32,193 nt of DNA, from contig JADFLZ010000001.1 of assembly GCA_022564135.1 (NCBI GenBank), positions 1 through 32,193 of the forward strand, written 5' to 3'. Origin of the DNA: Candidatus Zixiibacteriota bacterium. GTDB lineage: Bacteria > Zixibacteria > MSB-5A5 > GN15 > FEB-12. Every line of letters begins with the position of its first letter. Position 1 is the stretch's first letter. A program made the position numbers and the translations under genes. Under the pieces are notes generated by a model. It saw nothing but the letters and a program-made list of their open reading frames with translations. It was not told the origin of the DNA and ran no database searches. Of the stretch, positions 6,830 through 21,454 are shown in pieces.

Positions 6830-7186
6830 ATGTTTGAACAGTTATTTCCAATTCTGATGCTTTTTGTAGTCGCCGCCGTTCTGGCGGGGGTGCTGATCTT
6901 CTTGTCTATATTTATTGGCAGAAGAACAAAATTAGGCAAAAAAGGGCAGCCCTATGAATGCGGGATTGATCCCGAAGGGACAACCCGTGAGCCGTTTCCC
7001 GTAAAATTCTATATGGTTGCTATTCTTTTTATTCTTTTCGAAATCGAAGTCATTTTCCTTTATCCCTGGGCAGTTATCTCCAAGGAATTAGGCCTGTTTG
7101 GTTTTATAGAAATGCTCGTATTTGTGGTGATTCTTTTGGTTGGTTATTTTTACATTCTCGGAACGGGCGCCCTAAAATGGGACTAG
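6830..7186 (+). CDS. nuoA: NADH-quinone oxidoreductase subunit A.
   Basis: 118 aa with 3 TM segments, the conserved PYECG motif, and first position in the nuo gene order. Confidence 0.95.
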
Positions 7187-7680
7187 AAGAAAAAATTCCT
7201 GACTCTATTATATTGACGTCGCTGGACAAGATGGTCAACTGGGCCAGAAAGCGGTCAATGTGGCCGCTGGGATTTGGTCTGGCCTGTTGTGCCATTGAAA
7301 TGATTTCCACTTTTGCAGCACACTTTGATCTGGCTCGTTACGGAATGGAAGTAATGCGGGCTTCACCCCGGCAGGCCGACCTTATGATAGTTGCCGGACG
7401 CGTTTCTATGAAAATGGTGCCGGTAATCAAGACCTTGTACGAGCAAATGCCGAACCCCAAATGGGTTATTTCAATGGGAGCCTGTGCCTCATGTGGCGGG
7501 GTGTTCAATAATTATGCCATTTTGCAGGGTGTGGACAGAATCATTCCGGTGGATATTTATGTTCCGGGTTGTCCTCCGAGACCCGAACAGCTGATGGACG
7601 GCATTTTGAAGCTGCAGGAAATAGTAGAAAAAGATTCCCTGAAAAAAGTTCATGAAGAGTGGGGACGTAAGGTCGTTTAG
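7177..7680 (+). CDS. nuoB: NADH-quinone oxidoreductase subunit B (cluster N2 carrier).
   Basis: Contains [17 protein letters not shown] and PGCPPRPE motifs. It overlaps nuoA by 10 nt. Confidence 0.97.
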
Positions 7681-7752
7681 TTAAACTATGACGTCTTATA
7701 GTAAGAGGAAAGCTTTGCCAAGGATTGTGAAATTAGGAACAAGCGTTAACTG

Positions 7753-8274
7753 ATGAGAACATTGCTCTCCGAGTTTCTAAAAAGTAAGTTCGCTGATCGT
7801 ATTACGGAACAAGAACTGTTTCGTGACCAGCAGTCTTTTGTCGTCGAGCCCGAATCCATCGTGTCCGTATGTGAAGCTCTTTTGAATGATGAAAATCTCG
7901 AGGTCAAGTTTCTGGCCGACATTACCTGTGTCGACTGGCTGGGACATGAGCAGGAAAAGCAGGGGCGCTTTGAAGTAGTCTACAATCTATATTCATATAA
8001 GCATTCATACCGGTTTTTCCTGAAAGTTCGCCTTGACGGCGAAAGCCTCAGCGTCGGTACTTTGACCGGCTTATGGAAAGGGGCCAACTGGCTGGAGCGC
8101 GAAGTTTTTGACCTGTTTGGGATAAAATTTGAAGGTCACCCCAATCTGACCAAGATTGTTACTCCCGATGAACTCGAAGGCCACCCATTGCGCAAAGACT
8201 TTCCTTTGACCTGGGAGCAGCCGGTATTTTCATGGAACAAAGATGACCCGCCTGAGGTGAGAAATGAGCGCTGA
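7753..8274 (+). CDS. nuoC: NADH-quinone oxidoreductase subunit C (30-kDa subunit).
   Basis: Contains the WLEREVFDLFGIKFEGHPNL signature. AGGAA lies 13 nt upstream of the ATG. Confidence 0.95.
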   Translation: MRTLLSEFLKSKFADRITEQELFRDQQSFVVEPESIVSVCEALLNDENLEVKFLADITCVDWLGHEQEKQGRFEVVYNLYSYKHSYRFFLKVRLDGESLSVGTLTGLWKGANWLEREVFDLFGIKFEGHPNLTKIVTPDELEGHPLRKDFPLTWEQPVFSWNKDDPPEVRNER

Positions 8275-9439
8275 GAAAAAGACAATCACGCTCAATATGG
8301 GTCCGCAGCATCCATCGACTCACGGCGTGCTGCGCGTAAAATTAGAGCTTGATGGCGAGCGGGTAGTTACTGCCGAGCCTATAATCGGTTACCTGCATAC
8401 CGGAATAGAAAAGACGATGGAGTCAATGCTTTATTACAAAGCGATTCCCGCAACCGACCGCATGGATTATCTGGCGCCGATGTCTAACAATCTTGGCTAC
8501 TGTCTGGCGGTTGAAAAACTAATGGATATCGAAGTTCCTGAAAAAGTGAAATGGGCTCGAGTTTGTCTGGTGGAGCTTACCAGGGTTGCCTCGCATCTGG
8601 TCTGGCTGGGGACGCACTCACTCGATCTGGGCGCTATGTCGATGCTGATGTATGCTTTTAGAGAGAGAGAACTGATAATTGACTTATATGAAGCCTGCGG
8701 CGGCCAGCGGATGATGACCAGTTATATCCGAATCGGGGGATTGGCCAGTGATTTACCGGCAGACTTTGAAAAGAAAGTGCGCAATATCATCAAGACTATC
8801 CGGGAGAAAATGAAAGACTATGATAAGCTTTTAACCGAGAACCCGATTTTTATAATGCGTACCAAAGGTGTAGCAGTAATATCTGCCGAAGATGCTATCA
8901 ACTATTGTCTGAGCGGTCCGATGCTGCGCGGTTCGGGTGTTGACTACGATGTCCGTAAGGCCAATCCCTACAGCGGTTACGAAAATTTTGATTTTGATGT
9001 TCCGTTAGGTAAAAACGGCGACGCTTATGACAGATATTTAATCAGAATGGAAGAAATGAGGCAGTCGCTAAACATAGCCGAGCAGGCTATTGACGGTATG
9101 CCCGAGGGTCCCTACCGGGCACACGTGCCGGGAGTGGTATTGCCCCCCAAAGAAGATGTTCTCTATAAAATGGAATCAATGATTTTCCATTTCAAAATAA
9201 TAACTGATGGCTTCGAAGCTCCGGTAGGAAGCGTCTATCAGGCAATAGAATCGCCTAGAGGAGAGCTCGGTTTTTACATTACAGGTGACGGCACCAACAT
9301 ACCGAGAAGAGTAAGAGTCAGGCCGCCATCATTTGTGAATCTTGGCGCGCTGCCAATACTGACCGAAGGGCATCTGTTAGCAGATGTCGTCTGCGCTATC
9401 GGATCAATTGATATTGTACTGGGAGAAGTTGACAGATGA
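8264..9439 (+). CDS. nuoD: NADH-quinone oxidoreductase subunit D (49-kDa subunit).
   Basis: N-terminal LNMGPQHPSTHGVLR signature and C-terminal GEVDR. It overlaps nuoC by 11 nt. Confidence 0.97.
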   Translation: MSAEKKTITLNMGPQHPSTHGVLRVKLELDGERVVTAEPIIGYLHTGIEKTMESMLYYKAIPATDRMDYLAPMSNNLGYCLAVEKLMDIEVPEKVKWARVCLVELTRVASHLVWLGTHSLDLGAMSMLMYAFRERELIIDLYEACGGQRMMTSYIRIGGLASDLPADFEKKVRNIIKTIREKMKDYDKLLTENPIFIMRTKGVAVISAEDAINYCLSGPMLRGSGVDYDVRKANPYSGYENFDFDVPLGKNGDAYDRYLIRMEEMRQSLNIAEQAIDGMPEGPYRAHVPGVVLPPKEDVLYKMESMIFHFKIITDGFEAPVGSVYQAIESPRGELGFYITGDGTNIPRRVRVRPPSFVNLGALPILTEGHLLADVVCAIGSIDIVLGEVDR

Positions 9440-9912
9440 TACTGTCTGAAAAAACAGTCAAAATAATTAAAGATAAGCTTTCTAAGTATCCGAAAGCCAA
9501 AGGCATGATCTTGCCTGCCTTGACACTGGCTTACAAGCAGCTGGGCTACGTTGACAATGAAATTTACATAGAGATTTCTGAGATTATAAATGTTCCGCAG
9601 TTAGAAATTGCCGAAGCGGCCTCGTTTTATACGATGTTTCCCAAAAAACCAAGAGGCAAATACCTGCTTCAGGTTTGCAATAATATCTCATGTGCTCTTT
9701 TGGGCGCCGATGCCATGGTGGATCGTCTTGAAGAAAAGCTGGCAATCAAACGAGGCGAGACTACAGATGACGGCCTGTTCACCTTGATTTCAGTCGAATG
9801 CCTGGGCTCTTGCTGTACGGCACCAATGATTCAGATAAATGATGACTTTCATGAAAATTTGACGCGCGACAAACTTGATAAATTACTGGAAGGTCTGAAA
9901 AACGGAAAATGA
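9436..9912 (+). CDS. nuoE: NADH-quinone oxidoreductase subunit E (24-kDa 2Fe-2S subunit).
   Basis: Cysteine motifs CNNISC and CLGSCCTAP. ATGA overlap with nuoD. Confidence 0.95.
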   Translation: MILSEKTVKIIKDKLSKYPKAKGMILPALTLAYKQLGYVDNEIYIEISEIINVPQLEIAEAASFYTMFPKKPRGKYLLQVCNNISCALLGADAMVDRLEEKLAIKRGETTDDGLFTLISVECLGSCCTAPMIQINDDFHENLTRDKLDKLLEGLKNGK

Positions 9913-11243
9913 CATTTTATTCACCCGTCTTAACTAACGCTAAAGAGATTGCCGGACACGACAAGCTGCACCTGTTTGAGTACGTCGAAGATGAAAAACA
10001 ATATCAGCTTAAGCGCTATCTGGAACATGGCGGTTATACTGCCTGGAAAACCGTTTTGGGCAAAATGAAACCGGAAGAGGTCATCGAAGAGGTTAAAAAA
10101 TCGGGACTGCGCGGCCGCGGCGGCGCTGGTTTTCCAACCGGTATGAAATGGAGCTTTGTCCCTAAAGATTCTCCCAAAGTGCGCTATCTTTTATGCAACG
10201 CTGACGAATCAGAACCCGGCACCTGCAAAGACAGAGTGCTGATGGAGCGCGACCCGCATGTCGTAATTGAGGGCATGGCTATCGGAGCCTATGCCATTGG
10301 CTGCCATCTTATGTTCTGCTACATCCGCGGCGAGTTTCACCATTGTATCGAACGGATTGAAAAAGCGATGGAAGAGGCTTACTCCAAAGGACATCTCGGA
10401 AAAAATATCTATGGCAGCGGTTATGATCTGGAGATGATTGTGCACACCGGCGCCGGCGCTTACATGTGCGGAGAAGAGACCGGACTTATCAACTCTATCG
10501 AAGGTGAAAAAGGGATGGCCCGGATTCGTCCGCCGTTTCCGGCAATTGAAGGTCTCTGGGAATGTCCTACTATCGTTAACAATGTAGAAAGTCTGGCGGC
10601 GGTGCCACACATAATTAACAGAGGCGCCGACTGGTACCGTTCCATGGGTACTGAAAAATCTGCCGGCACAAAATTGTTTTCTCTTTCCGGTCACATCAAT
10701 CGCCCCGGCAACTATGAAGTCGAGCTTGGTTTTTCACTACAGAAACTCATATATGATGCAAACTACGGTAACGGCATTTCCGACGGCAAGAAACTCAAAG
10801 CAGTCATTCCCGGAGGAGCTTCAACGCCTTTTCTGACACCTGATAAAGTCGACGTGCCTCTGGATTACGAAGCCTTAACTGAGGCCGGCTCAATGCTTGG
10901 CTCCGGTGGGGTGATTGTGCTCCACGAAGATACCTGCATTGTCTGGACGATTTTGAAACTTATAAAGTTTTTCCGCCATGAATCCTGCGGTAAATGCACT
11001 CCCTGCCGTGAAGGTACCGGATGGCTGGAGCAGATTATTCAAAAAATCGAAGATGGCCGCGGCGGGCCGGATGATCTGGAAAAACTGGATTCTATTTGCA
11101 GCAATATCCTTGGCCGTACTATCTGTCCGCTGGGAGATGCGGCGGTGATGCCGATTCAATCGACTTTGAAACACTGGCGCGACGAATGGCAGTATCATAT
11201 TGAACACAAAAAATGTCTGGTAAATCAGAATTTTGGATTTTAA
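9909..11243 (+). CDS. nuoF: NADH-quinone oxidoreductase subunit F (51-kDa FMN/NADH-binding subunit).
   Basis: GLRGRGGAGFPTGMKW FMN/NADH site and ESCGKCTPCREG N3 cluster motif. Confidence 0.97.
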   Translation: MTFYSPVLTNAKEIAGHDKLHLFEYVEDEKQYQLKRYLEHGGYTAWKTVLGKMKPEEVIEEVKKSGLRGRGGAGFPTGMKWSFVPKDSPKVRYLLCNADESEPGTCKDRVLMERDPHVVIEGMAIGAYAIGCHLMFCYIRGEFHHCIERIEKAMEEAYSKGHLGKNIYGSGYDLEMIVHTGAGAYMCGEETGLINSIEGEKGMARIRPPFPAIEGLWECPTIVNNVESLAAVPHIINRGADWYRSMGTEKSAGTKLFSLSGHINRPGNYEVELGFSLQKLIYDANYGNGISDGKKLKAVIPGGASTPFLTPDKVDVPLDYEALTEAGSMLGSGGVIVLHEDTCIVWTILKLIKFFRHESCGKCTPCREGTGWLEQIIQKIEDGRGGPDDLEKLDSICSNILGRTICPLGDAAVMPIQSTLKHWRDEWQYHIEHKKCLVNQNFGF

Positions 11244-13802
11244 ATGGCACAAGCAGTAAAAGAAAAAGTAACGGCAATCGCCACTGTTACCTGTACCATA
11301 GACGGACAGCAGATAAGTGTCCCCAAAGGTACCAGCGTCTTCGATGCCGCCAAGCAAATCGGCATTGTCATCCCTGCTTTTTGCAATCATGCCAAATTGA
11401 AACCGGTCGGCGCCTGCCGTATGTGCTATGTTGAAATCGAAAAAATGCCCAAACTTCAGGTCTCATGCGCTACAACGGCCACCGACGGCATGGTCGTCAG
11501 CACTAACTCTCAGCAGGTCAGAGAAGGACGCAAAGCGGTTATCGAGTTTACGCTGATAAATCATCCGCTCGACTGTCCTACCTGCGACAAAGGCGGCGAG
11601 TGCGATTTGCAGGACTTGACGTTTTCTCACGGTTACGACGATTCCCGTTTTGGTTTTAACAAAATGCGTTTTATCGAAGAAGAGAAGCGCGATACTTTTG
11701 ATGATCTGAAAATAGGCCCTGAGATAGTTCTCAATAGAAATCGCTGCATTTTATGTTACAAGTGTGTCAGGGCCAACAAAGAAGCTTTCGGCGAGTACGA
11801 TATCGGATCTTTTGAGAGAGGCGACCATACCGAGATAAATGCCACGCCCGGTGGCGAGGTCAGCAATCCCTTTTCCGGTAACCTGGTAGAAATTTGTCCG
11901 GTCGGGGCGCTGACAAACTCTGACTGGCGCTATAAAATTCGTGTCTGGCTGACCAAGACGGTGCCATCAATCTGCAATTTCTCCGGCTCGGGTACTAATA
12001 TTACGTTTTATAAAGAAGACCACAAAAATTTTGTATATCGGGTGACTTCCAGATGCAACGATGATATCGATGACGGCTGGCTGAGTGATATCACCCGTTA
12101 TGGTTACCAGATTGTAAATTCCGAAAGCCGGCTGAAGACTCCGTTAATTAAAAAAGGCGGTAAGCAAGTTGAAGCCAGCTGGGATGAAGCGCTGGCCGTT
12201 ATAAAAAAACATATGGGCGAAATCAAAGACCAGAGCGGCGGTGTCTGCATAGGCGGTCTGATCAGTCCCAGTCTTGATAATGCCAGCCTCTACAGTTTTT
12301 CAAAGCTATTAAGAACAGTTTTCAAATCCAACAATATTGATTTCAGGGGTGACTATCGCTATCTGCCGTCAGTTACCGACAGTCCCTTTACGATAGCTGC
12401 CTCGCAGCCTTTTTCTATTGCTGATATAGAAAAATCTGATGTGATAATAACATTTGGTACCGATCTGATACGTGAGCACCATAACGAATATCTGAAAATC
12501 AGACGCGCTGTCAATTTCTTTAAGGCAACTGTCTATTCGGTAAACCCGTATGCGGTCAAGACGGCCGATATTGCCAAATCCGAAATGGTTTACAGCCCGG
12601 GGACGGATGAACTTGTCATAAACGGCGTTTGCTTAGCGGCCATAGAAAAGAAACTGGTAGACTCAGCGGCCGCTGCTAAGCTGAAACCAAAAATTTCAAA
12701 GCTCAGTCTGGGCGAATTAGCAAAGCAGACCGGTCTTAGCAAAGAGCAATTTGAAGAACTGGCTGAAGCTATTTCTGGTGCTAAGAGAATTACGTTTATT
12801 GTTGGAGAAATTGTAGCCCGTTCTTTAGAAAGAGATAAAATTTGTGCAGCCTTGTCAAATTTGAATAAGCTCTTTGGTGTTCAAGACAAAGGGCAGCTGG
12901 CCGTTTTGTCGCGATATGCTAACTCCAAAGGCGCTCAAAAACTTGGTCTCTCTGCAACTCCTTATGAAATTGTCAAAGCTGAGCTTAAAAAGATCTGGGG
13001 AGAGTATCCCGATTGCCAGCCGCGCAATACGGACTCGATGATAAACCTTATGAAAAAGGAAGAAATCAAAGGTTTCATTACTGTTGGCACGAATCCCATG
13101 AGACTATATCCCGACCGAGGTTTCGCCTCCGAAGGACTTGAGCATGTAGATTTTCTGGTAGCCTGCGATATGTTTGAAACAGAGACCACCGAACTGGCCG
13201 ATGTCGTGCTGCCACTTTGCAGCTGGGCCGAATACGACGGTGACTACATTAATCTTGAAGGAAAAGTCCAGACAGGTAAACAGGCCATAAAACCAAAGTA
13301 TAAATCCAAAGCGGCCTTTGAAATAATGGAGTTAATCGCCAGCCAGTCAGGTGTTAAGCTCTTTGAAAATGAACAGAGCAAAAGCGAAGAGATAGAGCAG
13401 CTGCTAAGCCTTAATTCTGTTTTGCCCTGGCCGGAAGATTTTATTGAAATTGAATACCAAAAGAAAAGCGCCGAAGACGGCTATCCGGTGCCTCTGTTCA
13501 TCTGCGACGACCCTCATCACAGCGGACATCTGACCGAAAAGTCACCGTCACTGCTGAATTTTTCTGACTCTGCCTATGTGGAACTGTCAAAGAGCCTGGC
13601 AGCAAAAATCGGAGTAGCAGACGGCGACCCGGTCAGGGTGGAATCTCCGGTAGGGAAGATAGTGGTGCCGGCAAAAATTTCAGCTGTGTTAACCAGCGAA
13701 GTCGCTATTATTCCCAGAAATTTCAGTTCAACCCAGATTACTTCGCTCTTAATGAGAAAGAAAAGAGTAGACAGCGTCAAACTAACGAGAGTGGAAGAAT
13801 AA
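11244..13802 (+). CDS. nuoG: NADH-quinone oxidoreductase subunit G (75-kDa subunit).
   Basis: It has the N1b 2Fe-2S cysteines (C-x10-C-x2-C-x13-C), the N5 motif HPLDCPTCDKGGEC and the N4 motifs CILCYKC...CPVGAL, followed by a molybdopterin-oxidoreductase-like C-terminal domain. The N7 cysteine motif appears lost (SICNFSGSGT and WLSDITRYG). The ATG directly abuts the nuoF TAA. Confidence 0.95.
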   Translation: MAQAVKEKVTAIATVTCTIDGQQISVPKGTSVFDAAKQIGIVIPAFCNHAKLKPVGACRMCYVEIEKMPKLQVSCATTATDGMVVSTNSQQVREGRKAVIEFTLINHPLDCPTCDKGGECDLQDLTFSHGYDDSRFGFNKMRFIEEEKRDTFDDLKIGPEIVLNRNRCILCYKCVRANKEAFGEYDIGSFERGDHTEINATPGGEVSNPFSGNLVEICPVGALTNSDWRYKIRVWLTKTVPSICNFSGSGTNITFYKEDHKNFVYRVTSRCNDDIDDGWLSDITRYGYQIVNSESRLKTPLIKKGGKQVEASWDEALAVIKKHMGEIKDQSGGVCIGGLISPSLDNASLYSFSKLLRTVFKSNNIDFRGDYRYLPSVTDSPFTIAASQPFSIADIEKSDVIITFGTDLIREHHNEYLKIRRAVNFFKATVYSVNPYAVKTADIAKSEMVYSPGTDELVINGVCLAAIEKKLVDSAAAAKLKPKISKLSLGELAKQTGLSKEQFEELAEAISGAKRITFIVGEIVARSLERDKICAALSNLNKLFGVQDKGQLAVLSRYANSKGAQKLGLSATPYEIVKAELKKIWGEYPDCQPRNTDSMINLMKKEEIKGFITVGTNPMRLYPDRGFASEGLEHVDFLVACDMFETETTELADVVLPLCSWAEYDGDYINLEGKVQTGKQAIKPKYKSKAAFEIMELIASQSGVKLFENEQSKSEEIEQLLSLNSVLPWPEDFIEIEYQKKSAEDGYPVPLFICDDPHHSGHLTEKSPSLLNFSDSAYVELSKSLAAKIGVADGDPVRVESPVGKIVVPAKISAVLTSEVAIIPRNFSSTQITSLLMRKKRVDSVKLTRVEE

Positions 13803-13806
13803 GCTT

Positions 13807-14814
13807 ATGTCGCTTGAGTTTTTCATAGTCACCTTCGTAAAAATCGCCCTGCTTATTTTTGTGCTGCTGACTGCCTGTGCCTATTCCACCTATATGGAGC
13901 GAAAAATTCTGGCATATATGCAGAATCGGGTCGGACCTTCTTATGCCGGACCATACGGTTTACTGCAGCCTCTGGCGGACGGACTCAAATTGATTTTCAA
14001 AGAGGACTTGGTTCCCGACAGAGTTGAACGAATCACCTATGCATTGGCACCGGTTGTATCATTTATACCGGCTATGCTGGTTTTTGCCGTAATTCCCTTT
14101 AGTTCGGAATTTGATCTGTTCGGTCTGCTGCCTTCTGCCACCAAGGGTGTTATTTCCGATTTATCAATCGGAGTTTTATTCATCTTTGCAGTCACCTCGC
14201 TGGGAGTGTACGGCCTAGTACTGGCCGGCTGGTCATCGGGCTCAAAATATTCGCTGCTGGGCGGCATCCGCTCATCGGCACAAATGATATCATACGAAGT
14301 TGGCTATGGTCTTTCGATTGTAGGGGTGGTTCTGGTCTCCAACACCCTTTCATTGACTGAAATAGTATCTTTACAATCAGGGTCATTATTTAACTGGTTT
14401 ATATTTAAGCAGCCCTTAGGATTTATGATTTACATTGTCTGTGGGATTGCCGAAACAAACCGGGCGCCGTTTGATATGGCCGAAGCGGAATCTGAACTGG
14501 TCGCCGGATATCACACCGAATATTCTTCGATGCGTTTTTCGATGTTTTTTATAAGTGAATACGCCAACATGCTGGCAGTATCGGCTGTGGCCGTGACGCT
14601 GTTTTTCGGAGGCTGGGCCGGGCCGCTGTTACCGCCAATTTTTTGGTTCTTAATAAAGATTCTGGTATTTATGTTTGTTTATATCTGGCTGCGGGCAACT
14701 TTTCCGCGCTTTAGATATGACCAGTTAATGACTTTTGGATGGAAAGTGCTTTTTCCCCTGGCGCTATTGAACATTATGCTGACAGCAGCCTGGGAATTAT
14801 ATAAAAACTCATGA
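13807..14814 (+). CDS. nuoH: NADH-quinone oxidoreductase subunit H.
   Basis: Contains the GLLQPLADGLKLIFKED signature, is a polytopic membrane protein, and sits at the expected position in the operon. Confidence 0.96.
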   Translation: MSLEFFIVTFVKIALLIFVLLTACAYSTYMERKILAYMQNRVGPSYAGPYGLLQPLADGLKLIFKEDLVPDRVERITYALAPVVSFIPAMLVFAVIPFSSEFDLFGLLPSATKGVISDLSIGVLFIFAVTSLGVYGLVLAGWSSGSKYSLLGGIRSSAQMISYEVGYGLSIVGVVLVSNTLSLTEIVSLQSGSLFNWFIFKQPLGFMIYIVCGIAETNRAPFDMAEAESELVAGYHTEYSSMRFSMFFISEYANMLAVSAVAVTLFFGGWAGPLLPPIFWFLIKILVFMFVYIWLRATFPRFRYDQLMTFGWKVLFPLALLNIMLTAAWELYKNS

Positions 14815-14830
14815 GTGTGAAGAAAATAAG

Positions 14831-15337
14831 ATGAAAGAAATAATTACAGCCTTAGGCAGAACATTTATCAGGATGCCAATCGGTATGCTGGTGGTTTTGA
14901 AGCATATGTTCAAAAAACCGGTGACGCTTGATTATCCCCGTAAGAAAAAGCCGATGGCCCCGCGCTTTATGGGACGGCAATATCTGGAACGCTATGACGA
15001 CGGCAGCGAGCGCTGTGTTTCTTGCGGATTGTGTGCGGCAGCCTGTCCGTCGGACTGTATCTATATGGAGCCGGCCGAAAACGAAAAGGGTGAGCGCTAC
15101 GCCAAAGTGTTTGAGATAAATCTGCTTCGTTGTATTTTCTGCGGATTTTGTGAAGAAGCCTGTCCCGAAGAAGCGATTTTCATGGGTCATCATTATGAAT
15201 TTAGTGCCGACAATCGCGATTCCTTCATCTGGACCAAAGAGGATATGCTGGTAAAGCACCCGCGCAAAGATAACCCGTTCAAAACATTGTTTAGAAGAGT
15301 CAGAAAAGTTTACGGAGTAACTGACAAAACAAGATGA
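14831..15337 (+). CDS. nuoI: NADH-quinone oxidoreductase subunit I (2x[4Fe-4S] ferredoxin-type).
   Basis: Two CxxCxxCxxxCP motifs: CVSCGLCAAACP and CIFCGFCEEACP. Confidence 0.96.
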   Translation: MKEIITALGRTFIRMPIGMLVVLKHMFKKPVTLDYPRKKKPMAPRFMGRQYLERYDDGSERCVSCGLCAAACPSDCIYMEPAENEKGERYAKVFEINLLRCIFCGFCEEACPEEAIFMGHHYEFSADNRDSFIWTKEDMLVKHPRKDNPFKTLFRRVRKVYGVTDKTR

Positions 15338-15906
15338 ACCTTGACGGCGTAATATTTATTATTTCAGCGGCGGTTACTTTGTTTGGTGCGGTCATGATGA
15401 TTATGCAGCGCAACCCGGTGGCGGCGGTTTTGTATTTCATACTTTCACTGGTGGCTCAAGCCGTGCTGTATGTTCAATTAGGAGCGCTCTTTGTCGGTGC
15501 TGTTTTGATAATAGTTTATTCCGGGGCAATCCTAGTGCTTTTCTTATTCGTGATAATGCTGCTAAATCTCAGAGGGGACGAAGACCTCGGCGCGCCGTCA
15601 GCGCCGCTGTCGCAGCTCACCAAGTATATTGTCTCCATAGGCATTATAGCAGAGTTTGCTTTTATAATCTGGTCGAGCGTCTTTTCAAGTTCTATTCCTA
15701 CCGGAATTATTGCAGGAGCTTCTGACAATTTCGGATCAACCGAGCAGGTGGCCAGGTTGCTGTTTGGTCGTTACCTCTATCCTTTTGAGCTGACTTCGAT
15801 ATTGCTGCTGGCTGCGATTGTCGGTGCGGTTGTTATTGCCAGAAAAGAAGATAAAGATGAAACTGAATCTAAAGCAGAAGCGTCAACTGACAAAGCAACA
15901 GGTTAA
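15334..15906 (+). CDS. nuoJ: NADH-quinone oxidoreductase subunit J.
   Basis: 190 aa hydrophobic ND6-like protein with ATGA overlap with nuoI. It has a charged C-terminal tail (KEDKDETESKAEAS). Confidence 0.9.
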   Translation: MNLDGVIFIISAAVTLFGAVMMIMQRNPVAAVLYFILSLVAQAVLYVQLGALFVGAVLIIVYSGAILVLFLFVIMLLNLRGDEDLGAPSAPLSQLTKYIVSIGIIAEFAFIIWSSVFSSSIPTGIIAGASDNFGSTEQVARLLFGRYLYPFELTSILLLAAIVGAVVIARKEDKDETESKAEASTDKATG

Positions 15907-15909
15907 GAT

Positions 15910-16212
15910 ATGTTTGGAATTACGCATTTCTTGTTTATAGCAGTTTTACTTTTCGGCATTGGGGTGACAGGCGTGCTTATTTCGCGGAACATTATTGTTC
16001 TGCTTATGTCGGTGGAGTTGATGTTAAACGCTGGCAACCTGGCGATTATTGCTTTTTCAAGAGCCTTAAATGTTATGGATGGTCACGCTTTCGTGTTTTT
16101 GGTGTTAACCGTCGCGGCTGCCGAAGCTGCTGTCGGACTGGCCATGGTGATTACGATTTTTAATAACCGCCGCTCAATAAATATTGACAAGTATAGTCTG
16201 CTTAAGTGGTAG
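15910..16212 (+). CDS. nuoK: NADH-quinone oxidoreductase subunit K.
   Basis: 100 aa with 3 TM segments, ND4L-like, with conserved Glu residues in the TM helices (MSVELMLNAGN, AAAEAAVGLA). Confidence 0.93.
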   Translation: MFGITHFLFIAVLLFGIGVTGVLISRNIIVLLMSVELMLNAGNLAIIAFSRALNVMDGHAFVFLVLTVAAAEAAVGLAMVITIFNNRRSINIDKYSLLKW

Positions 16213-16225
16213 GTGTAAAGAAGAG

Positions 16226-18160
16226 ATGACAGAAAACATTTATTGGATACCGCTCTTGCCGCTATTGGGCTTTCTGGTCAACGGCCTGCTATTGGGGAAA
16301 CTTCCCCAGCGGGTTGTCTCGCTGATTGCCTGTGGTACGGTTGGCCTATCGTTTCTGTTGTCGCTTTTGTCGTTTCTGGAGCTTAAAGCGCTGCCGCCGG
16401 AATTACGTATAATCGAACAGACATTGTTTACCTGGATATCATCAGGTGATTTCCATGTCAATTTCGGATTTTTGTTAGACCCGCTTTCATCTATCATGAT
16501 TCTGGTCGTAAGCGGTGTCGGCTTTTTAATTCATCTTTATTCTGTCGGATATATGAGTCATGATTCCGGATATGGTCGTTATTTTGCTTATCTGAATCTG
16601 TTTACATTTTCAATGCTGGTACTGGTACTGGCTGACAATTTCCTGTTTATGTTTGTGGGCTGGGAAGGTGTCGGACTTTGTTCTTATCTTTTGATAGGTT
16701 TCTGGTTTGAGAAAAAATCAGCCTCCGATGCCGGCAAGAAAGCTTTCATAGTAAACCGCATCGGAGATTTTGGATTTTTGATCGCCATGTTCATAATTTT
16801 CTGGCAGGTCGGTTCGCTTGACTTTATGACTGTCGCGGCAAGAGCCCCTGAGGTTTTTGTAGCAGGAGGAGCGCTGGTTACGGCAGCCTGTATTCTGCTG
16901 TTTGTAGGGGCAGCCGGAAAGTCCGCTCAGATTCCGCTATATGTCTGGCTTCCGGACGCCATGGAAGGTCCTACTCCGGTTTCGGCTTTGATTCATGCCG
17001 CTACTATGGTAACCGCCGGCGTCTATATGATTGTCCGTGCCAATGCCCTGTTTATCCTGTCGCCTGATGCACTTATGGTTGTTGCCATTGTTGGCGGTGT
17101 GACAGCGCTCTTTGCGGCGACTATCGGACTGGTTCAAAATGATATTAAGCGAGTGCTGGCCTATTCAACTATCAGCCAGCTTGGTTATATGTTTTTGGCT
17201 TGCGGTGTGGCTGCTTTTTCTGCCAGTATTTTTCATCTTATGACTCACGCTTTTTTCAAAGCGCTGCTGTTTCTTGGGGCCGGCTCTGTTATTCACGCTA
17301 TGTCTGACGAACAGGACATGCGTTATATGGGCGGACTAAAAAAATATCTACCAATAACTTTTGGGACATTTTTTATCGCAACTCTGGCGATATCGGGCAT
17401 TCCTCTGATGTCGGGTTTTTTCTCCAAGGATGAAATTTTGTGGCAAGCCTTTTCGTCCGACTACGGTCACCCAATCTTTTGGGTGATGGGCTTTATTACA
17501 GCCGGTCTGACGGCGTTTTATATGTTCCGATTGTTGTTTATGACTTTTTATGGCAAAGAGCGCATGGACGAAAAAACGAAAAGTCATATCCATGAGTCAC
17601 CAAAGTTTATGACTATACCGCTGATGGTTCTGGCTGTCTTAGCAGTTGTCGGCGGCTGGATTGGCATGCCTCACATTTTTGGAGTAACAAATTATTTCGA
17701 AGCCTGGCTTGAGCCGGTAATTTCCGCCAAGCCGGCGGCAGCGGCAGATATGCTGACTTCGGCCGGAAGCGACACCAGCATGGAACTTATGCTGATGTTC
17801 GCTACTATTATTCTGGTTGGTCTGGCTATTTTTGCTGCATTCAAAATTTATAACAAAAACCCAAAAGTGGCTGACTCGCTGGCAGACAAATTCAAAACTC
17901 CTCACAATGTTCTTTTAAACAAATATTATGTTGATGAATTCTATGGGGCGGTCATTGTACGTCCGCTCATATATTTCTCTCTGTTTTTGTGGAAGATTAT
18001 GGATGTCTTGTTGATTGACGGTCTGTTAAACGGTCTGGCAAAATTGTATGAAGGCATTTCTGAGACAATGCGTTCAATACAGACCGGCCGGGTAAGGTCG
18101 TATGCGACGGTATTTGTCATTGGAGTTTTCATCTTAATAGCTTATGCGGTGACTGGATAA
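16226..18160 (+). CDS. nuoL: NADH-quinone oxidoreductase subunit L.
   Basis: ND5-type antiporter-like subunit with WEGVGLCSYLLIGFW and a long C-terminal lateral-helix region. I chose the ATG at 16226 (MTENIYWIPLL, preceded by AAAGAAGAG) over the listed upstream start at 16184, which would overlap nuoK by 29 nt. Confidence 0.93.
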   Translation: MTENIYWIPLLPLLGFLVNGLLLGKLPQRVVSLIACGTVGLSFLLSLLSFLELKALPPELRIIEQTLFTWISSGDFHVNFGFLLDPLSSIMILVVSGVGFLIHLYSVGYMSHDSGYGRYFAYLNLFTFSMLVLVLADNFLFMFVGWEGVGLCSYLLIGFWFEKKSASDAGKKAFIVNRIGDFGFLIAMFIIFWQVGSLDFMTVAARAPEVFVAGGALVTAACILLFVGAAGKSAQIPLYVWLPDAMEGPTPVSALIHAATMVTAGVYMIVRANALFILSPDALMVVAIVGGVTALFAATIGLVQNDIKRVLAYSTISQLGYMFLACGVAAFSASIFHLMTHAFFKALLFLGAGSVIHAMSDEQDMRYMGGLKKYLPITFGTFFIATLAISGIPLMSGFFSKDEILWQAFSSDYGHPIFWVMGFITAGLTAFYMFRLLFMTFYGKERMDEKTKSHIHESPKFMTIPLMVLAVLAVVGGWIGMPHIFGVTNYFEAWLEPVISAKPAAAADMLTSAGSDTSMELMLMFATIILVGLAIFAAFKIYNKNPKVADSLADKFKTPHNVLLNKYYVDEFYGAVIVRPLIYFSLFLWKIMDVLLIDGLLNGLAKLYEGISETMRSIQTGRVRSYATVFVIGVFILIAYAVTG

Positions 18161-19737
18161 TGGAACTTTCTCTTTTAACATTTTTCCCGGCTATTGGCGC
18201 TTTGCTTTTGCTGCTGGTGCCGTCAAAGCAGCATGATACTATTAAAATGGTCAGCTTGCTGGTAGCCTTTGTTACCTTTTTGGTTTCACTATGGCTCTAT
18301 TTTGCCTTTGACCCGATTGCACATCCGATGCAGTTTGAGTTTTCCGTTCCCTGGATTCCATCAATGGGCATAAATTATCATATGGGCATCGATGGCATTT
18401 CATTGCTGCTGATAGTGATGACGGCGCTGCTGATGATTCCTGCCATACTCTGTTCCTGGAAATCTATCACAAAATCTGTCAAAGGTTTTTATATTTCGAT
18501 GCTTCTGCTGGCAACCGGAATGCTTGGAGTTTTCTGCTCGCTTGACCTGTTTCTGTTCTATGTTTTCTGGGAAGTAATGCTGATACCGATGTATTTCATA
18601 ATCGGGCTCTGGGGAGGCCAGAGACGACTCTATGCAGCCATAAAATTCGTGCTGTTCACCATGTTCGGTTCTCTATTGATGTTAGTAGCTATTATTTACA
18701 TGGCTTTTGAATTCAAATCACAGACAGGTGTCTATTCATTTGACATGATAGCACTAACCGGTATGCCAATAGCGACGCAGGCACAAATGTGGTTGTTCGG
18801 AGCCTTTGCGCTGGCCTTTGCCATCAAAGTTCCGCTGTTCCCGTTTCATACCTGGCTTCCTGACGCTCATGTCGAGGCGCCGACTGCTGGCTCGGTAATT
18901 CTGGCGGGTGTGCTTTTAAAACTCGGCACTTACGGCTTTATCAGGATTTGTATGCCGATGTTCCCCGAAGCTACTGTTGCTTTCACTCCCTATATTTCAG
19001 TCTTGGCTATTATCGCCATAATCTATGGCGCCCTGGTAGCTATGGTCCAAAAAGATATTAAGTCACTGGTGGCTTTTTCGTCTGTTTCGCATATGGGCTT
19101 TGTGATGCTGGGTCTGTTTGCCTTAAATACACAGGCACTTGAAGGCAGCGTAATTCAGATGATAAACCACGGCATTTCTACCGGCGCTCTGTTTTTATTG
19201 GTAGGCATGATATATGAAAGGCGCCACACCAGACTGATTAGTGAGTTTGGCGGACTGGCCAAAGTGATGCCGGTTTTTTCAACGATTTTTCTGATTGTCA
19301 TTCTGTCATCAATCGGTCTGCCCTTGACTAATGGCTTTGTCGGCGAATTTTTGATACTGCTGGGCCTGTTTAAGGTAAATGCCACCTATGCCATATTAGC
19401 CGCGACAGGTATCATACTGTCGGCCTGCTATATGTTGTGGATGTACCAGAGAGTTGTCTTCGGCAAACTGACCAATCCCAAAAACGAAAAGCTGCTGGAT
19501 CTGTCATTGAGAGAAAAAGTTATTTTGATACCGCTGGTCGTGCTCATATTTTGGATTGGTATTTATCCCAAGCCGCTCTTTGACAGACTAAGCCCGTCTA
19601 TCAGACTAGTTCAGGAGCAAATGCAGAGTCGGGCTTCGGCTGGCAAAAACAGCAAATTTGAATTTGTTGAAAGTATTAAAGAAAGCGATTATAACTATGA
19701 CGCTACAATTGAAGATAGACTGGAGAAAGTAAAATGA
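18160..19737 (+). CDS. nuoM: NADH-quinone oxidoreductase subunit M.
   Basis: ND4-type subunit with FWEVMLIPMYFIIGLWGG and FPFHTWLPDAHVEAPT. TAATG overlap with nuoL. Confidence 0.95.
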   Translation: MELSLLTFFPAIGALLLLLVPSKQHDTIKMVSLLVAFVTFLVSLWLYFAFDPIAHPMQFEFSVPWIPSMGINYHMGIDGISLLLIVMTALLMIPAILCSWKSITKSVKGFYISMLLLATGMLGVFCSLDLFLFYVFWEVMLIPMYFIIGLWGGQRRLYAAIKFVLFTMFGSLLMLVAIIYMAFEFKSQTGVYSFDMIALTGMPIATQAQMWLFGAFALAFAIKVPLFPFHTWLPDAHVEAPTAGSVILAGVLLKLGTYGFIRICMPMFPEATVAFTPYISVLAIIAIIYGALVAMVQKDIKSLVAFSSVSHMGFVMLGLFALNTQALEGSVIQMINHGISTGALFLLVGMIYERRHTRLISEFGGLAKVMPVFSTIFLIVILSSIGLPLTNGFVGEFLILLGLFKVNATYAILAATGIILSACYMLWMYQRVVFGKLTNPKNEKLLDLSLREKVILIPLVVLIFWIGIYPKPLFDRLSPSIRLVQEQMQSRASAGKNSKFEFVESIKESDYNYDATIEDRLEKVK

Positions 19738-19964
19738 GTAATTCCGGCGAAGTGACAATCTATACCAAGCAAGGCTGTCCCTATTGTGCGGCGGCCTTAA
19801 AGCATTACACCGAGCAGGGGACAAAGTTCAGGCAAATAGACATTCACGACACCCCCGGTGCCAAAGAAGAAGTTCTGAAACTGACCAAAGGTCAGGAAAT
19901 AGTGCCGGTGATAATCGAAGACGGCCAGGTCACGGCCGGATTTGGAGGTGGCTGAGGTTTCTAA
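19734..19964 (+). CDS. Glutaredoxin-like small redox protein (CPYC active site). It is probably a selenoprotein, with TGA 19953-19955 decoded as Sec and a C-terminus of ...GFGGG-U-G-F. The conventional reading ends at 19955.
   Basis: Grx/NrdH-like fold pattern: VTIYTKQGCPYCAAALKHY...EIVPVIIEDGQVTAGFGG. ATGA overlap with the nuoM stop, and GGAG at 19722-19725 eight nt before the ATG. The TGA is followed by GGT TTC TAA and an immediately adjacent SECIS-like hairpin. As I recall, an NCBI family named Uxx-star glutaredoxin-like (seleno)protein has Sec exactly three residues from the stop. Confidence 0.8.
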
Positions 19965-19996
19965 ATTAGCTGCGGCGGTCGCCGCACAAAGAAACT
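19956..19996 (+). promoter_or_regulatory. Candidate bacterial SECIS element: a two-tier stem-loop immediately 3' of the TGA.
   Basis: The lower stem pairs GTTTCT (19957-19962) with AGAAAC (19990-19995). The upper stem pairs TGCGGC (19971-19976) with GCCGCA (19981-19986). The apical loop is GGTC (19977-19980), about 25-28 nt from the U of UGA. This is comparable to the E. coli fdhF SECIS, whose GGUC-containing loop carries the essential G23/U24. It could instead be a plain intra-operon hairpin. Confidence 0.5.
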
Positions 19997-20005
19997 AAAA
20001 CTGAT

Positions 20006-21454
20006 ATGTTTGATACTACCGCGGCATCGATAGATTTTAGCATCATAGCGCCTGAGATCACTCTGCTGGTGGCGGCGTTTATAATTCTGGTCTCTGTCTA
20101 TAACGAGAGAATGAGAAATATGGCGCCCATAATCGCTACTTTAGGGCTGTTGGTCTCATTGATTATTTCCATAGAGCAGATGGGCAATCCCAAGACCGGA
20201 TTTTTTGGAATGGTCAGTTGTGATGATTTCACGGTTGTATTCAAAATTTTATTCGTAGTTTCATCTCTGCTTATTCTCATGATAGGTCGCCGCTATTTTG
20301 TGGCCAAAAATATTGACCGTCCGGAGTTCTATGCTCTTCTGTGCATTTCTACAATGGGCATGATGGTCATGGCTTCGACAACCGATTTAGTCGTAATATT
20401 TTTGGGCTTGGAAATTATGTCGGTGCCGCTGTATGTCATGGCCGGCATGGACAAGCGCTCTCTGGAGTCTAACGAAGCCGGCATCAAATACCTGATAATG
20501 GGAGCCTTCGCCAGCGGCTTTTTGCTGATGGGCATCGCTTTTATATTCGGATCGTCGGGCACTACCGATTTGCGGCGAATAGCTGCCGACTTTCAGTTCA
20601 TAGGTGAAAATTATCGGCTCTACTTTAATGCCGGTGCCGTGCTGACTTTAGTAGGTTTCGCTTTTAAAGTTGCGGCGGTCCCGTTCCACTCCTGGGTGCC
20701 CGATGTCTATCAGGGGGCACCAACGCCTGTTACTGCATTTTTTTCCGTCGGACCAAAAGCTGCCGGATTCGCGGCACTGCTGCGCATTTTTAATTTCGGG
20801 TTCGAAGACATGGAATTTATCTCTGATATTTTCTGGATGCTGGCTGTTCTGACCATGACTGTCGGAAATATACTGGCATTAAGGCAGGGGAACATTAAAA
20901 GAATGCTGGCTTATTCTTCAATTGCCCACGCCGGATATATACTGGTAGCTTTAGCTGTCGGCGGCTCGGCGGCAATGTCTGCGGCTATTTTTTATCTGTT
21001 TGCTTACGCGCTTTTTAACCTGGGAAGTTTTGCCATCATCACTCAGCTTGAGATACGCAGCGGCTGCAAATCCGAACTCTCCGAGCTTTCGGGTCTTTCT
21101 AAAGCTCATCCTTATTTGTCTGCGGCGCTGACTGTCTTCATGCTGGCGCTGGCAGGTTTCCCACCCACAGTTGGCTTTATCGGCAAATTTTATCTGTTTA
21201 CAGCTGCCATTGATGGCGGCTTTATCTGGCTGACTGTCATAGGTGTTTTGAATTCTTTTATATCAGTCTACTATTATCTGCGGGTGGTAAAAGTTAGTTT
21301 TCTGGAGAAGTTCGAGGGTACTTTCGCACCTGTCAAATATACGCCTGCTATGATTGCTGTACTGCTGATTACACTGGCCGGAACTCTGGGGTTGGGTATT
21401 TTTCCCGAAAAACTCCTTGAGCTTTCTCAAGCGGCGATTTTTGCTTTTCTCTAA
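20006..21454 (+). CDS. nuoN: NADH-quinone oxidoreductase subunit N.
   Basis: ND2-type antiporter-like subunit (VPFHSWVPDVYQGAPTPVTAF, KRMLAYSSIAHAGY) and the last gene of the operon. Confidence 0.95.
   Translation: MFDTTAASIDFSIIAPEITLLVAAFIILVSVYNERMRNMAPIIATLGLLVSLIISIEQMGNPKTGFFGMVSCDDFTVVFKILFVVSSLLILMIGRRYFVAKNIDRPEFYALLCISTMGMMVMASTTDLVVIFLGLEIMSVPLYVMAGMDKRSLESNEAGIKYLIMGAFASGFLLMGIAFIFGSSGTTDLRRIAADFQFIGENYRLYFNAGAVLTLVGFAFKVAAVPFHSWVPDVYQGAPTPVTAFFSVGPKAAGFAALLRIFNFGFEDMEFISDIFWMLAVLTMTVGNILALRQGNIKRMLAYSSIAHAGYILVALAVGGSAAMSAAIFYLFAYALFNLGSFAIITQLEIRSGCKSELSELSGLSKAHPYLSAALTVFMLALAGFPPTVGFIGKFYLFTAAIDGGFIWLTVIGVLNSFISVYYYLRVVKVSFLEKFEGTFAPVKYTPAMIAVLLITLAGTLGLGIFPEKLLELSQAAIFAFL

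What the first reader, a model, noticed from the sequence alone, without database searches (positions are those of the whole stretch)
19734..19996. Probable selenocysteine recoding: the Grx-like ORF ends ...GGG-UGA-GGT-TTC-TAA with a SECIS-like hairpin starting right after the UGA
The CPYC glutaredoxin-like ORF stops at TGA 19953-19955. Only two sense codons (Gly, Phe) separate it from an in-frame TAA at 19962-19964. Directly after the TGA the RNA can fold into a two-tier stem-loop. GUUUCU (19957-62) pairs with AGAAAC (19990-95), and UGCGGC (19971-76) pairs with GCCGCA (19981-86), with apical loop GGUC (19977-80). The geometry resembles the E. coli fdhF SECIS: the stem begins just 3' of UGA, and the GU-containing apical loop lies about 25 nt downstream. 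That element's GGUC-type loop carries the essential G23/U24. A Sec positioned three residues before the stop fits what I recall as the NCBI 'Uxx-star family glutaredoxin-like (seleno)protein', but I cannot verify that here. A standard gene caller would truncate this protein and miss the selenoprotein.
Basis: partly seen in the sequence, partly recalled or inferred. Interest (0 to 1): 0.8.

Follow-up and report, generated by a model that had tools for sequence, protein, structure and literature searches.

The report
Selenocysteine glutaredoxin-like gene inside complex I operon
The small glutaredoxin-like gene between nuoM and nuoN almost certainly reads its TGA as selenocysteine and ends three codons later, which makes it a member of the already curated "Uxx-star" selenoprotein family that gene callers, including this contig's GenBank record, cut short.

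Summary
ORF 19734-19955 (CPYC glutaredoxin fold) ends GFGGG-TGA-GGT-TTC-TAA. A 6-bp hairpin with a GGUC loop (19971-19986) lies 21 nt after the TGA.

- The 76-aa read-through product matches NCBIfam NF041212, "Uxx-star family glutaredoxin-like (seleno)protein", end to end (111 bits, cutoff 66).
- In 91 related loci the first stop is TGA in 91/91, and a second stop follows exactly two codons later in 90/91.
- The next codon is Gly in 85/90, using all four GGN codons. The one after it is almost always hydrophobic.
- The second stop varies (TAA 50, TAG 26, TGA 14).
- All six hairpin pairs show compensatory changes (97% paired against 77% in shuffles). The hairpin meets the published bacterial SECIS constraints.
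- TGA is an ordinary stop for 12 of 27 other genes in the window, so the genetic code is standard.
- Distant relatives carry Cys at the Sec column.

Sec machinery (selA/B/C/D) could not be tested, because the window is a whole 32-kb MAG contig. The lower stem is not conserved across the family.

One point may be under-described: 87 of 90 loci place the gene between nuoM and nuoN (72 with both flanks, 15 cut by a contig end). The kind is known; interest is low to moderate.

The parts
6830..21454 (+). Complete 14-subunit NADH:quinone oxidoreductase (nuoA-N) operon that contains the selenoprotein gene
   Evidence: Pfam hits for every subunit
18160..19737 (+). nuoM-like antiporter subunit. Its TGA stop overlaps the start of the glutaredoxin-like gene (ATGA at 19734-19737)
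   Evidence: PF00361, 265 bits. The overlap is read from the sequence. The junction is -4 nt in 27 and -1 nt in 11 of 72 related loci
19734..19964 (+). Full Uxx-star glutaredoxin-like selenoprotein gene: 76 aa (M1...G73-U74-G75-F76) plus the TAA stop
   Evidence: NF041212, 111 bits, profile 1-70/70. Conserved U-x-x-stop architecture in 90/91 loci
19776..19787 (+). Codons for the CPYC redox motif (Cys15-Pro-Tyr-Cys18)
   Evidence: Sequence. CPYC is present in all 187 homologues. It sits at the N-terminus of helix 1 in the model
19953..19955 (+). In-frame UGA read as selenocysteine (residue 74)
   Evidence: First stop is TGA in 91/91 loci. Cys aligns at this column in distant homologues
19956..19964 (+). 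Two post-UGA sense codons (Gly75, Phe76) and the true stop TAA
   Evidence: Gly in 85/90 loci using all four GGN codons; F/I/V/W at the next codon; stop as TAA 50, TAG 26, TGA 14
19971..19986 (+). Bacterial SECIS core: 6-bp stem UGCGGC/GCCGCA closing the apical loop GGUC (19977-19980). It lies entirely in the intercistronic spacer, 21 nt after the UGA
   Evidence: Folds. Covariation in 83 sequences. Published bSECIS constraints met (PMC13188914 Fig. 2A, read)
19957..19995 (+). Window-specific lower stem GUUUCU (19957-62) / AGAAAC (19990-95) that encloses the SECIS core. It is not conserved in the family
   Evidence: Predicted. Absent from the consensus structure and heterogeneous in per-sequence folds
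20006..21454 (+). nuoN-like antiporter subunit. Its start codon lies 41 nt after the selenoprotein's true stop and 19 nt after the SECIS hairpin
   Evidence: PF00361, 265 bits. The family median spacer is about 35 nt (after subtracting the 3-nt stop that the script counted in)

Best explanation
The gene at 19734-19964 encodes a 76-residue glutaredoxin-fold selenoprotein of the Uxx-star family.

Recoding. During translation the UGA at 19953-55 is decoded as selenocysteine. SelB carrying Sec-tRNA(Sec) binds the GGUC-loop hairpin at 19971-86, which is a bacterial SECIS placed 21 nt downstream. The ribosome adds Gly and Phe and then terminates at UAA 19962-64. Because Sec is the third residue from the end, the SECIS lies wholly outside the ORF, in the 41-nt spacer before nuoN. 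This part is inferred from comparative sequence evidence and is not shown biochemically.

Protein. It is a minimal beta-alpha-beta-alpha-beta-beta glutaredoxin fold with no C-terminal helix. Directly after strand 4, next to the CPYC active site, comes a flexible Gly-rich tail, GFGGG-U-GF.

Likely chemistry (inference). Sec74 exchanges a selenenylsulfide with Cys15, so that CPYC and Sec form a short redox relay. This resembles the GCUG tail of mammalian thioredoxin reductase.

Context. The gene is translationally coupled to nuoM and sits between nuoM and nuoN in nearly all relatives. Its redox partner or client is therefore probably complex I or something produced at it. That step is speculative.
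For: Family membership.
- NF041212 matches at 111 bits against a cutoff of 66, over the full profile.
- All 36 read-through relatives that were scanned match NF041212; it gives the best E-value in the set and is the top hit for the window protein.

Recoding signature across 91 loci whose protein identity to the window ranges from 99% down to 37%.
- The first stop is TGA in 91/91, and U-x-x-stop holds in 90/91.
- Codon +1 is GGA 31, GGC 24, GGT 20, GGG 10.
- Codon +2 encodes F 58, I 24, V 6, W 1.
- The second stop is TAA 50, TAG 26, TGA 14.
- Three-base periodicity ends exactly at the second stop.

SECIS.
- The consensus is a 6-bp stem with compensatory changes at all 6 pairs.
- 97.1% of cells are paired against 77.1% shuffled; 102 double-change cells against 18; 0 of 500 shuffles reach the observed value; slid controls give 28-61%.
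- The loop is GGUC in 58/83 sequences and starts 22-27 nt from the U of UGA in almost all.
- 68/83 core hairpins, the window's included, meet all four published bSECIS constraints, and spacing is 16-23 nt in all (constraints read from PMC13188914).
- The site is not terminator-like, since no T tract follows.

Standard code. TGA ends 12 of 27 other genes in the window, including nuoM.

Cys homologues. Five distant relatives have Cys at the U column followed by x-x-stop. All five have a monothiol CxxS/T N-terminal motif, which fits the tail residue pairing with the N-terminal Cys.

Fold. The AlphaFold model has pLDDT 87.5, strand 4 ends at residue 68, and the tail has pLDDT about 49. The best PDB matches are glutaredoxins and NrdH at TM 0.74-0.81.

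Context.
- nuoM-gene-nuoN is seen in 72/90 loci. Another 15 are cut by a contig end but consistent, and 3 are exceptions.
- The arrangement is the same in three further genomes, including a 3.84-Mb contig.
- The nuoM stop overlaps the gene's start.

Public naming. A sibling at >=90% identity, MEE8149048.1, already carries the Uxx-star name.
Against: - No selA, selB, selD or tRNA-Sec was seen. None is in the window or in the fetched loci, and the rest of the MAG could not be reached.
- There is no experimental evidence of selenium incorporation for this family that I could find.
- Single-sequence folding energy is only marginally better than shuffles (z -1.5 to -2.4).
- Rfam has no matching family.
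- Among close relatives there is no true Cys form. The only Cys-bearing tail, P0113 (GGG-S-C-F), is out of register and comes from a 1.4x-coverage contig.
- The loci are phylogenetically related, which inflates the shuffle statistics, although the slid-partner control is not subject to this.
- The redox-relay chemistry and the link to complex I rest on fold logic and synteny only.
Confidence: 0.88

Rival explanations
1. The TGA is a genuine stop and the protein is the 73-aa product annotated in GenBank. On this reading the conserved hairpin is an intercistronic RNA element, such as an mRNA stabiliser, a processing site or a translational-coupling structure for nuoN, and has nothing to do with selenocysteine.
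For: - The hairpin lies entirely in the spacer between two cistrons, 19 nt before the nuoN start.
- In the window its lower stem pairs with AGAAAC, 11-16 nt upstream of the nuoN ATG.
- No Sec machinery has been demonstrated.
- TGA is the commonest ordinary stop in this contig, ending 12 of 27 genes.
Against: This reading leaves several observations unexplained.
- The first stop is TGA in 91/91 loci, while the next stop freely uses TAA, TAG and TGA.
- The six bases after the TGA evolve like two codons: Gly with all four synonymous codons, then a hydrophobic residue.
- A stop follows at exactly codon +3 in 90/91 loci.
- The loop is the SelB-type G-U motif at the canonical distance.
- Distant homologues encode Cys-x-x-stop at the same column.
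- A curated selenoprotein model covers the three extra residues.
Confidence: 0.06
2. The UGA is read through, but not as selenocysteine. It could be near-cognate Trp or Cys insertion, or the lineage could have reassigned UGA as in genetic codes 4 or 25.
For: The coding signature downstream of the TGA shows only that translation continues. It does not say which residue is inserted.
Against: - TGA terminates 12 of 27 other genes in this contig, including the overlapping nuoM, and all long ORFs are intact under table 11. UGA is therefore not reassigned.
- A conserved, covarying hairpin with a GGU loop at SECIS distance is what SelB-dependent decoding needs and is not required for leaky read-through.
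- Cys at the aligned column in distant relatives is the classical Sec/Cys pairing.
Confidence: 0.04
3. The in-frame TGA is a sequencing or assembly error, or the gene is a decaying pseudogene.
For: The window comes from a metagenome-assembled genome.
Against: The same TGA and tail appear in 91 independently assembled loci from many samples and at least two phylum-level labels. The ORF is otherwise intact, and conserved positions such as CPYC and VP are invariant or nearly so.
Confidence: 0.01

Closest known systems
Uxx-star family glutaredoxin-like (seleno)proteins (NCBIfam NF041212; sub-families NF041114, NF041211, NF047338; cited in review PMC13188914 to Haft & Tolstoy 2025 and Zhang & Gladyshev 2008)
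   Same: - About 70-aa glutaredoxin fold with Sec three residues before the stop.
- Gly-rich stretch before the U, and a SECIS downstream of the stop.
- Full-length HMM match above the cutoff.
- Function unknown in the literature. The review suggests metal binding or unknown substrates.
   Different: - This clade scores below the cutoffs of named families 2 and 3 (71.4 against 100 and 97). It only just passes family 1 (74.9 against 72).
- The review lists family 1 as a two-Sec UxxT protein, whereas this protein has CPYC.
- This clade is almost always embedded between nuoM and nuoN. I could not find that context described, but the primary paper was not readable here.
Bacterial SECIS elements (E. 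coli fdhF type; consensus bSECIS model of Zhang & Gladyshev as summarised in PMC13188914)
   Same: - Stem-loop downstream of the UGA with a small apical loop that starts with G-G-U.
- 21-nt spacing, within the model's 16-37 nt.
- MFE of -10.7 kcal/mol, below the -7.5 threshold.
   Different: - It lies entirely beyond the ORF's stop codon, whereas the review describes bSECIS elements as typically within the coding region.
- It has no bulged U in the upper stem, a feature I recall from memory for fdhF.
- The fdhF-like lower helix that starts right after the UGA is not conserved.
Mammalian thioredoxin reductase C-terminal Gly-Cys-Sec-Gly tail (from established knowledge, not tested here)
   Same: Sec sits on a flexible Gly-rich C-terminal tail a few residues from the stop. 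It is thought to shuttle electrons between an internal dithiol centre and substrates through a selenenylsulfide.
   Different: The scaffold is unrelated (flavoprotein against a 76-aa glutaredoxin fold), there is no adjacent Cys in the tail, and the SECIS is of the eukaryotic 3'-UTR type.
NrdH / YruB-type small glutaredoxin-like redoxins
   Same: - About 75 aa, CxxC motif and the same fold. Foldseek TM is 0.78-0.81 to NrdH and BC3987.
- A Cys-form relative, P0342, is translationally coupled to a 312-aa thioredoxin-reductase-like flavoprotein, as would be expected for a redoxin reduced by TrxR.
   Different: - It scores far below the NrdH, YruB and Grx3 cutoffs (41-52 bits against 86-90).
- It lacks the C-terminal helix and carries the Sec tail instead.

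Membership tests
Uxx-star family glutaredoxin-like (seleno)protein (NF041212) | HMM score at or above the curated cutoff over the full-length profile | tested here: met
   111 bits against a cutoff of 66, profile 1-70/70. All 36 relatives that were scanned match
Uxx-star family glutaredoxin-like (seleno)protein (NF041212) | In-frame UGA followed by exactly two sense codons and then a stop ('U-x-x-star') | tested here: met
   TGA 19953-55, GGT, TTC, TAA 19962-64. The pattern holds in 90/91 loci
Uxx-star family glutaredoxin-like (seleno)protein (NF041212) | Glutaredoxin/thioredoxin fold with an N-terminal redox motif | tested here: met
   PF00462, 48.5 bits. AlphaFold model with pLDDT 87.5. Foldseek matches glutaredoxins at TM 0.74-0.81. 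CPYC is at residues 15-18
Bacterial selenoprotein gene (general) | bSECIS model: 3-9 nt apical loop, 4-16 bp upper stem, G in the first two loop positions, 16-37 nt from the UGA, MFE <= -7.5 kcal/mol | tested here: met
   The loop is GGUC, the stem is 6 bp, the spacing is 21 nt and the MFE is -10.7 kcal/mol. The constraints were read
Bacterial selenoprotein gene (general) | The SECIS structure is conserved and covaries among orthologues | tested here: met
   6/6 pairs show compensatory changes. 97.1% of cells are paired and 0/500 shuffles reach the observed value
Bacterial selenoprotein gene (general) | Cys-containing homologues with Cys aligned to the UGA column | tested here: met
   P0240, P0342, P0264, P0281 and P0305 have C-x-x-stop. 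These are distant relatives only (38-39% identity); no in-register Cys form was found in the close clade
Bacterial selenoprotein gene (general) | The genome encodes selA, selB, selC (tRNA-Sec) and selD | not testable with these tools
   None is present in the 32-kb contig or in the fetched flanks.
Bacterial selenoprotein gene (general) | Selenium demonstrably incorporated into the protein | not testable with these tools
   This needs 75Se labelling or mass spectrometry
[quoted passage not shown] | Score at or above the cutoff, plus the two-Sec architecture with a UxxT N-terminal motif as listed in the review | tested here: inconclusive
   74.9 against a cutoff of 72 with Cys substituted, and 69.2 when truncated. 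The N-terminal motif here is CPYC, not UxxT
UXX-star (seleno)protein families 2 and 3 (NF041211, NF047338) | Score at or above the curated cutoff | tested here: not met
   71.4 against 100, and 71.4 against 97
Classical glutaredoxin 3 / NrdH / YruB | Score at or above the curated cutoff of the equivalog models | tested here: not met
   TIGR02181 46.9 against 90, TIGR02194 41.3 against 85.75, TIGR02196 52.1 against 88.55
E. coli fdhF-type SECIS | Two-tier helix that starts immediately 3' of the UGA, conserved among orthologues | tested here: not met
   The lower helix recurs in the closest relatives (L001-L003; similar pairing in L021 and L029) but is not in the family consensus

The most novel reading that the evidence does not exclude
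This Uxx-star clade may be a dedicated selenoprotein accessory factor of respiratory complex I in Zixibacteria, Ignavibacteria, Calditrichaeota and related lineages. It could be a thioredoxin-fold subunit, or a maintenance or peroxide-scavenging redoxin, expressed stoichiometrically from within the membrane-arm gene block. Its SECIS occupies the short spacer just before nuoN, so SelB binding there could additionally tie nuoN translation to selenium status. A precedent I recall from memory, not checked here, is SelB autoregulation through a SECIS-like element in the E. coli selAB leader.
Probability: 0.25. Interest if true: 0.6.

Novelty: new member of a known kind. Interest (0 to 1): 0.3.

Why it matters
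In practical terms, this gene and essentially all of its database relatives are deposited as a truncated 70-73-aa "glutaredoxin" that lacks its probable catalytic selenocysteine. A profile search found 4,662 relatives at E <= 1e-5. Selenoproteome and redox inventories of these uncultured sediment and groundwater lineages therefore undercount selenium use.

In biological terms, the kind is already curated, so the recoding itself would not surprise a specialist. The part worth following is the near-obligate position between nuoM and nuoN, seen across relatives from 99% down to 37% protein identity. That position suggests a selenium-dependent accessory function for bacterial complex I. It also gives a clean natural example of a bacterial SECIS that works entirely outside the reading frame.

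Tried and rejected
- Rfam, at gathering thresholds on the whole window and at permissive E-values on 19880-20060, found nothing relevant. This says little, because no matching bacterial SECIS family scored.
- ARAGORN on the window and on 52 loci found no tRNA-Sec. Pfam on all large window ORFs found no sel genes. The Sec-machinery test therefore remains open.
- The primary paper on the family (Haft & Tolstoy 2025) is not held in the library. Literature searches for Zixibacteria with selenocysteine or selenophosphate, and for glutaredoxin with nuoM and nuoN, gave nothing useful.
The 73-aa form was modelled instead, so the geometry of the tail relative to CPYC is inferred and not modelled.
- The fdhF-like lower stem as a conserved feature was rejected.
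- A terminator reading of the hairpin was rejected, because no T tract follows and the scan does not call it.
- I did not build a covariance model. The anchored alignment already gave clear covariation.
Full report
**What is in the sequence**

A 73-codon ORF starts at ATG 19734, which overlaps the TGA stop of the upstream gene as ATGA. It encodes CPYC at codons 15-18 (19776-19787) and reaches TGA at 19953-55 after ...AGFGGG. Next come GGT (Gly), TTC (Phe) and TAA (19962-64). After a further 6 nt comes the hairpin UGCGGC-GGUC-GCCGCA (19971-19986). GUUUCU (19957-62) can pair with AGAAAC (19990-95) around it. ViennaRNA returns exactly this fold.

On this one sequence the energy is only modestly better than shuffles (z -1.5 to -2.4). 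GGUC-loop hairpins of at least 5 bp are rare, 3 in the 64 kb of both strands. A single-sequence argument would still be weak.

**Where it sits**

The window is an entire 32,193-nt contig of a candidate-division Zixibacteria MAG. The exact 73-aa product is GenBank MCH7946180.1, 'glutaredoxin'. A 99%-identical locus lies on a 675-kb contig of Zixiibacteriota MAG B21T1B10.

Pfam assigns 6830-21454 to a complete nuoA-N complex I operon. The small gene lies between nuoM (18160-19737) and nuoN (20006-21454). No sel genes, tRNAs or Rfam families occur in the window.

**Family**

With Cys substituted for the UGA, the 76-aa product matches NCBIfam NF041212, 'Uxx-star family glutaredoxin-like (seleno)protein'. 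The match covers the whole 70-position profile at 111 bits (cutoff 66).
- Named family 1 (NF041114) is only just passed, at 74.9 against 72.
- Families 2 and 3 are not reached.
- Classical Grx3, NrdH and YruB models are far below their cutoffs.
- All 36 relatives that were scanned match NF041212.

A review (PMC13188914) lists the UXX-star families among predicted prokaryotic selenoproteins and gives no established function for them.

**Comparative test of recoding**

One genome scan and one metagenome scan gave 91 family loci whose protein identity to the window ranges from 99% down to 37%.
- The first in-frame stop is TGA in 91/91.
- In 90/91 a second stop follows after exactly two codons.
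- Codon +1 is Gly in 85/90, spread over GGA 31, GGC 24, GGT 20 and GGG 10.
- Codon +2 encodes Phe 58, Ile 24, Val 6 or Trp 1.
- The second stop is TAA 50, TAG 26 or TGA 14.
- Position by position, +1, +2 and +5 are nearly fixed, +3 and +6 are free, +7 to +9 are stop codons, and from +10 the constraint vanishes until the hairpin.

This is the signature of two translated codons behind an obligatory UGA. TGA is an ordinary terminator for 12 of 27 other genes in the contig, so the code is standard and the recoding is site-specific.

**The RNA element**

An alignment of 83 distinct downstream regions, anchored on the TGA, gives a consensus of one 6-bp helix closing a 4-nt loop.
- All six pairs show compensatory double changes.
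- 97.1% of cells are paired, against 77.1% in column shuffles and 28-61% when partners are slid. There are 102 double-change cells against 18, and 0 of 500 shuffles reach the observed values.
- The loop is GGUC in 58/83 sequences, and most of the rest keep a G-U or G-G. It begins 22-27 nt from the U of UGA in almost all.
- The published bSECIS constraints are a 3-9 nt loop, a 4-16 bp stem, G in the first two loop positions, 16-37 nt spacing and MFE <= -7.5 kcal/mol (read). The window's element meets them (GGUC, 6 bp, 21 nt, -10.7 kcal/mol), as do 68/83 trimmed cores.
It is not in the family consensus. The conserved element is the minimal upper stem-loop, not a two-tier fdhF-like helix.
- The hairpin is not terminator-like.

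**Cys homologues**

Among 187 close database homologues, 186 stop just before the TGA: 185 end GFGGG or GFDGG, and one ends GFGGS, also followed by TGA. The only Cys-bearing tail is P0113 (GGA TCA TGT TTT TAA, giving S-C-F), on a 1.4x-coverage contig.

A full HMMER scan of 1.84 billion representatives found more distant relatives that end C-G-V, C-S-F, C-A-F or C-F-V, with the Cys aligned to the Sec column. All five of these have a monothiol CxxS/T N-terminal motif. That suggests the tail Cys or Sec is the partner of the N-terminal active-site Cys. One of them, P0342, is translationally coupled to a 312-aa thioredoxin-reductase-like flavoprotein.

**Protein anatomy and likely mechanism**

The AlphaFold model (pLDDT 87.5) has strand 7-11, helix 16-28, strand 32-36, helix 43-50, strand 59-62 and strand 65-68. 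A low-confidence tail follows and there is no C-terminal helix. The best structural matches are glutaredoxins and NrdH at TM 0.74-0.81.

In glutaredoxins the loop after strand 4 borders the CxxC site (established knowledge). The GFGGG-U-GF tail therefore emerges next to Cys15.

I infer a Cys15/Cys18/Sec74 redox relay through a selenenylsulfide. This is an inference only, because the tail could not be modelled.

**Context**

The order nuoM-gene-nuoN is found in 72/90 loci. Another 15 are cut by contig ends but consistent, and there are 3 exceptions: L053 (after a P-type ATPase), L085 and L088. Three further genomes labelled Deferrimicrobium, Calditrichaeota and an unnamed 3.84-Mb contig show the same order.

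The nuoM stop usually overlaps the gene's start. The spacer to nuoN is short, 41 nt here and about 35 nt at the median, and the SECIS fills most of it. This strongly suggests a functional link to complex I, but nothing here shows what that link is. I found no description of this context in the searchable literature, and the primary paper on the family was not available.

**Verdict**

The gene is a member of a known, curated selenoprotein family and is mis-annotated as truncated in its own record. What remains open is the Sec machinery of this genome, direct proof of selenium incorporation, and the biochemical role next to complex I.

Noticed in passing
L095:304-525 (ENA contig, 546 nt, about 1.4x coverage; protein P0113): The only close homologue with a Cys-bearing tail. 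It reads GGA TCA TGT TTT TAA (GGG-S-C-F-stop) where the others read TGA GGN TTY. A hairpin, CAGCGA-AGUUU-UCGCUG, is still present downstream. It could be a recent Sec-to-Ser/Cys conversion or a set of read errors.
   Followed up: partly
L053:~380-590 (FWPV01173422.1, high-GC): A family member that sits directly after the C-terminus of a P-type ATPase instead of in a nuo operon. Its tail is U-T-A-stop and its hairpin loop is GUGU. L088 (tail U-G-V-stop) and L085 (no stop after two codons) are also outside nuo operons.
   Followed up: partly
L099:4066-5225 (JACQVX010000098.1; protein P0342): A distant Cys-form relative (CSYS ... GFGGS-C-S-F-stop) whose start overlaps the end of a 312-aa thioredoxin-reductase-like Pyr_redox_2 gene. 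This hints that the wider family is reduced by TrxR-type flavoproteins.
   Followed up: partly
Alignment A4: All five relatives with Cys at the Sec column have a monothiol CxxS/T N-terminal motif, whereas the Sec forms here keep CPYC. Relatives of the APxGG-x-DF subgroup carry S, T, R or A at that column.
   Followed up: partly
window 104-1414, 1411-1938, 1935-3944, 5181-6281 (+) and 30732-32180 (-): Five sizeable ORFs (175-669 aa) have no Pfam family at E <= 1e-3 to 1e-5. Three of them form an overlapping run at the 5' end of the contig.
   Followed up: no
window 6295-6690 (+): A Janus/Ocnus-family ORF (phosphohistidine-phosphatase-like; PF05005, 29.9 bits) lies immediately upstream of nuoA.
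   Followed up: no
window 15910-16212 and 16184-18160 (+): The listed nuoL ORF starts at a TTG that overlaps nuoK by 29 nt. The true nuoL start is probably further downstream.
   Followed up: no
window 19734-19955; GenBank MCH7946180.1, MEE8149048.1, MFH2037745.1: Public records that already carry the name 'Uxx-star family glutaredoxin-like (seleno)protein' are still deposited as 70-73-aa products cut at the UGA. The name is applied without the read-through.
   Followed up: yes
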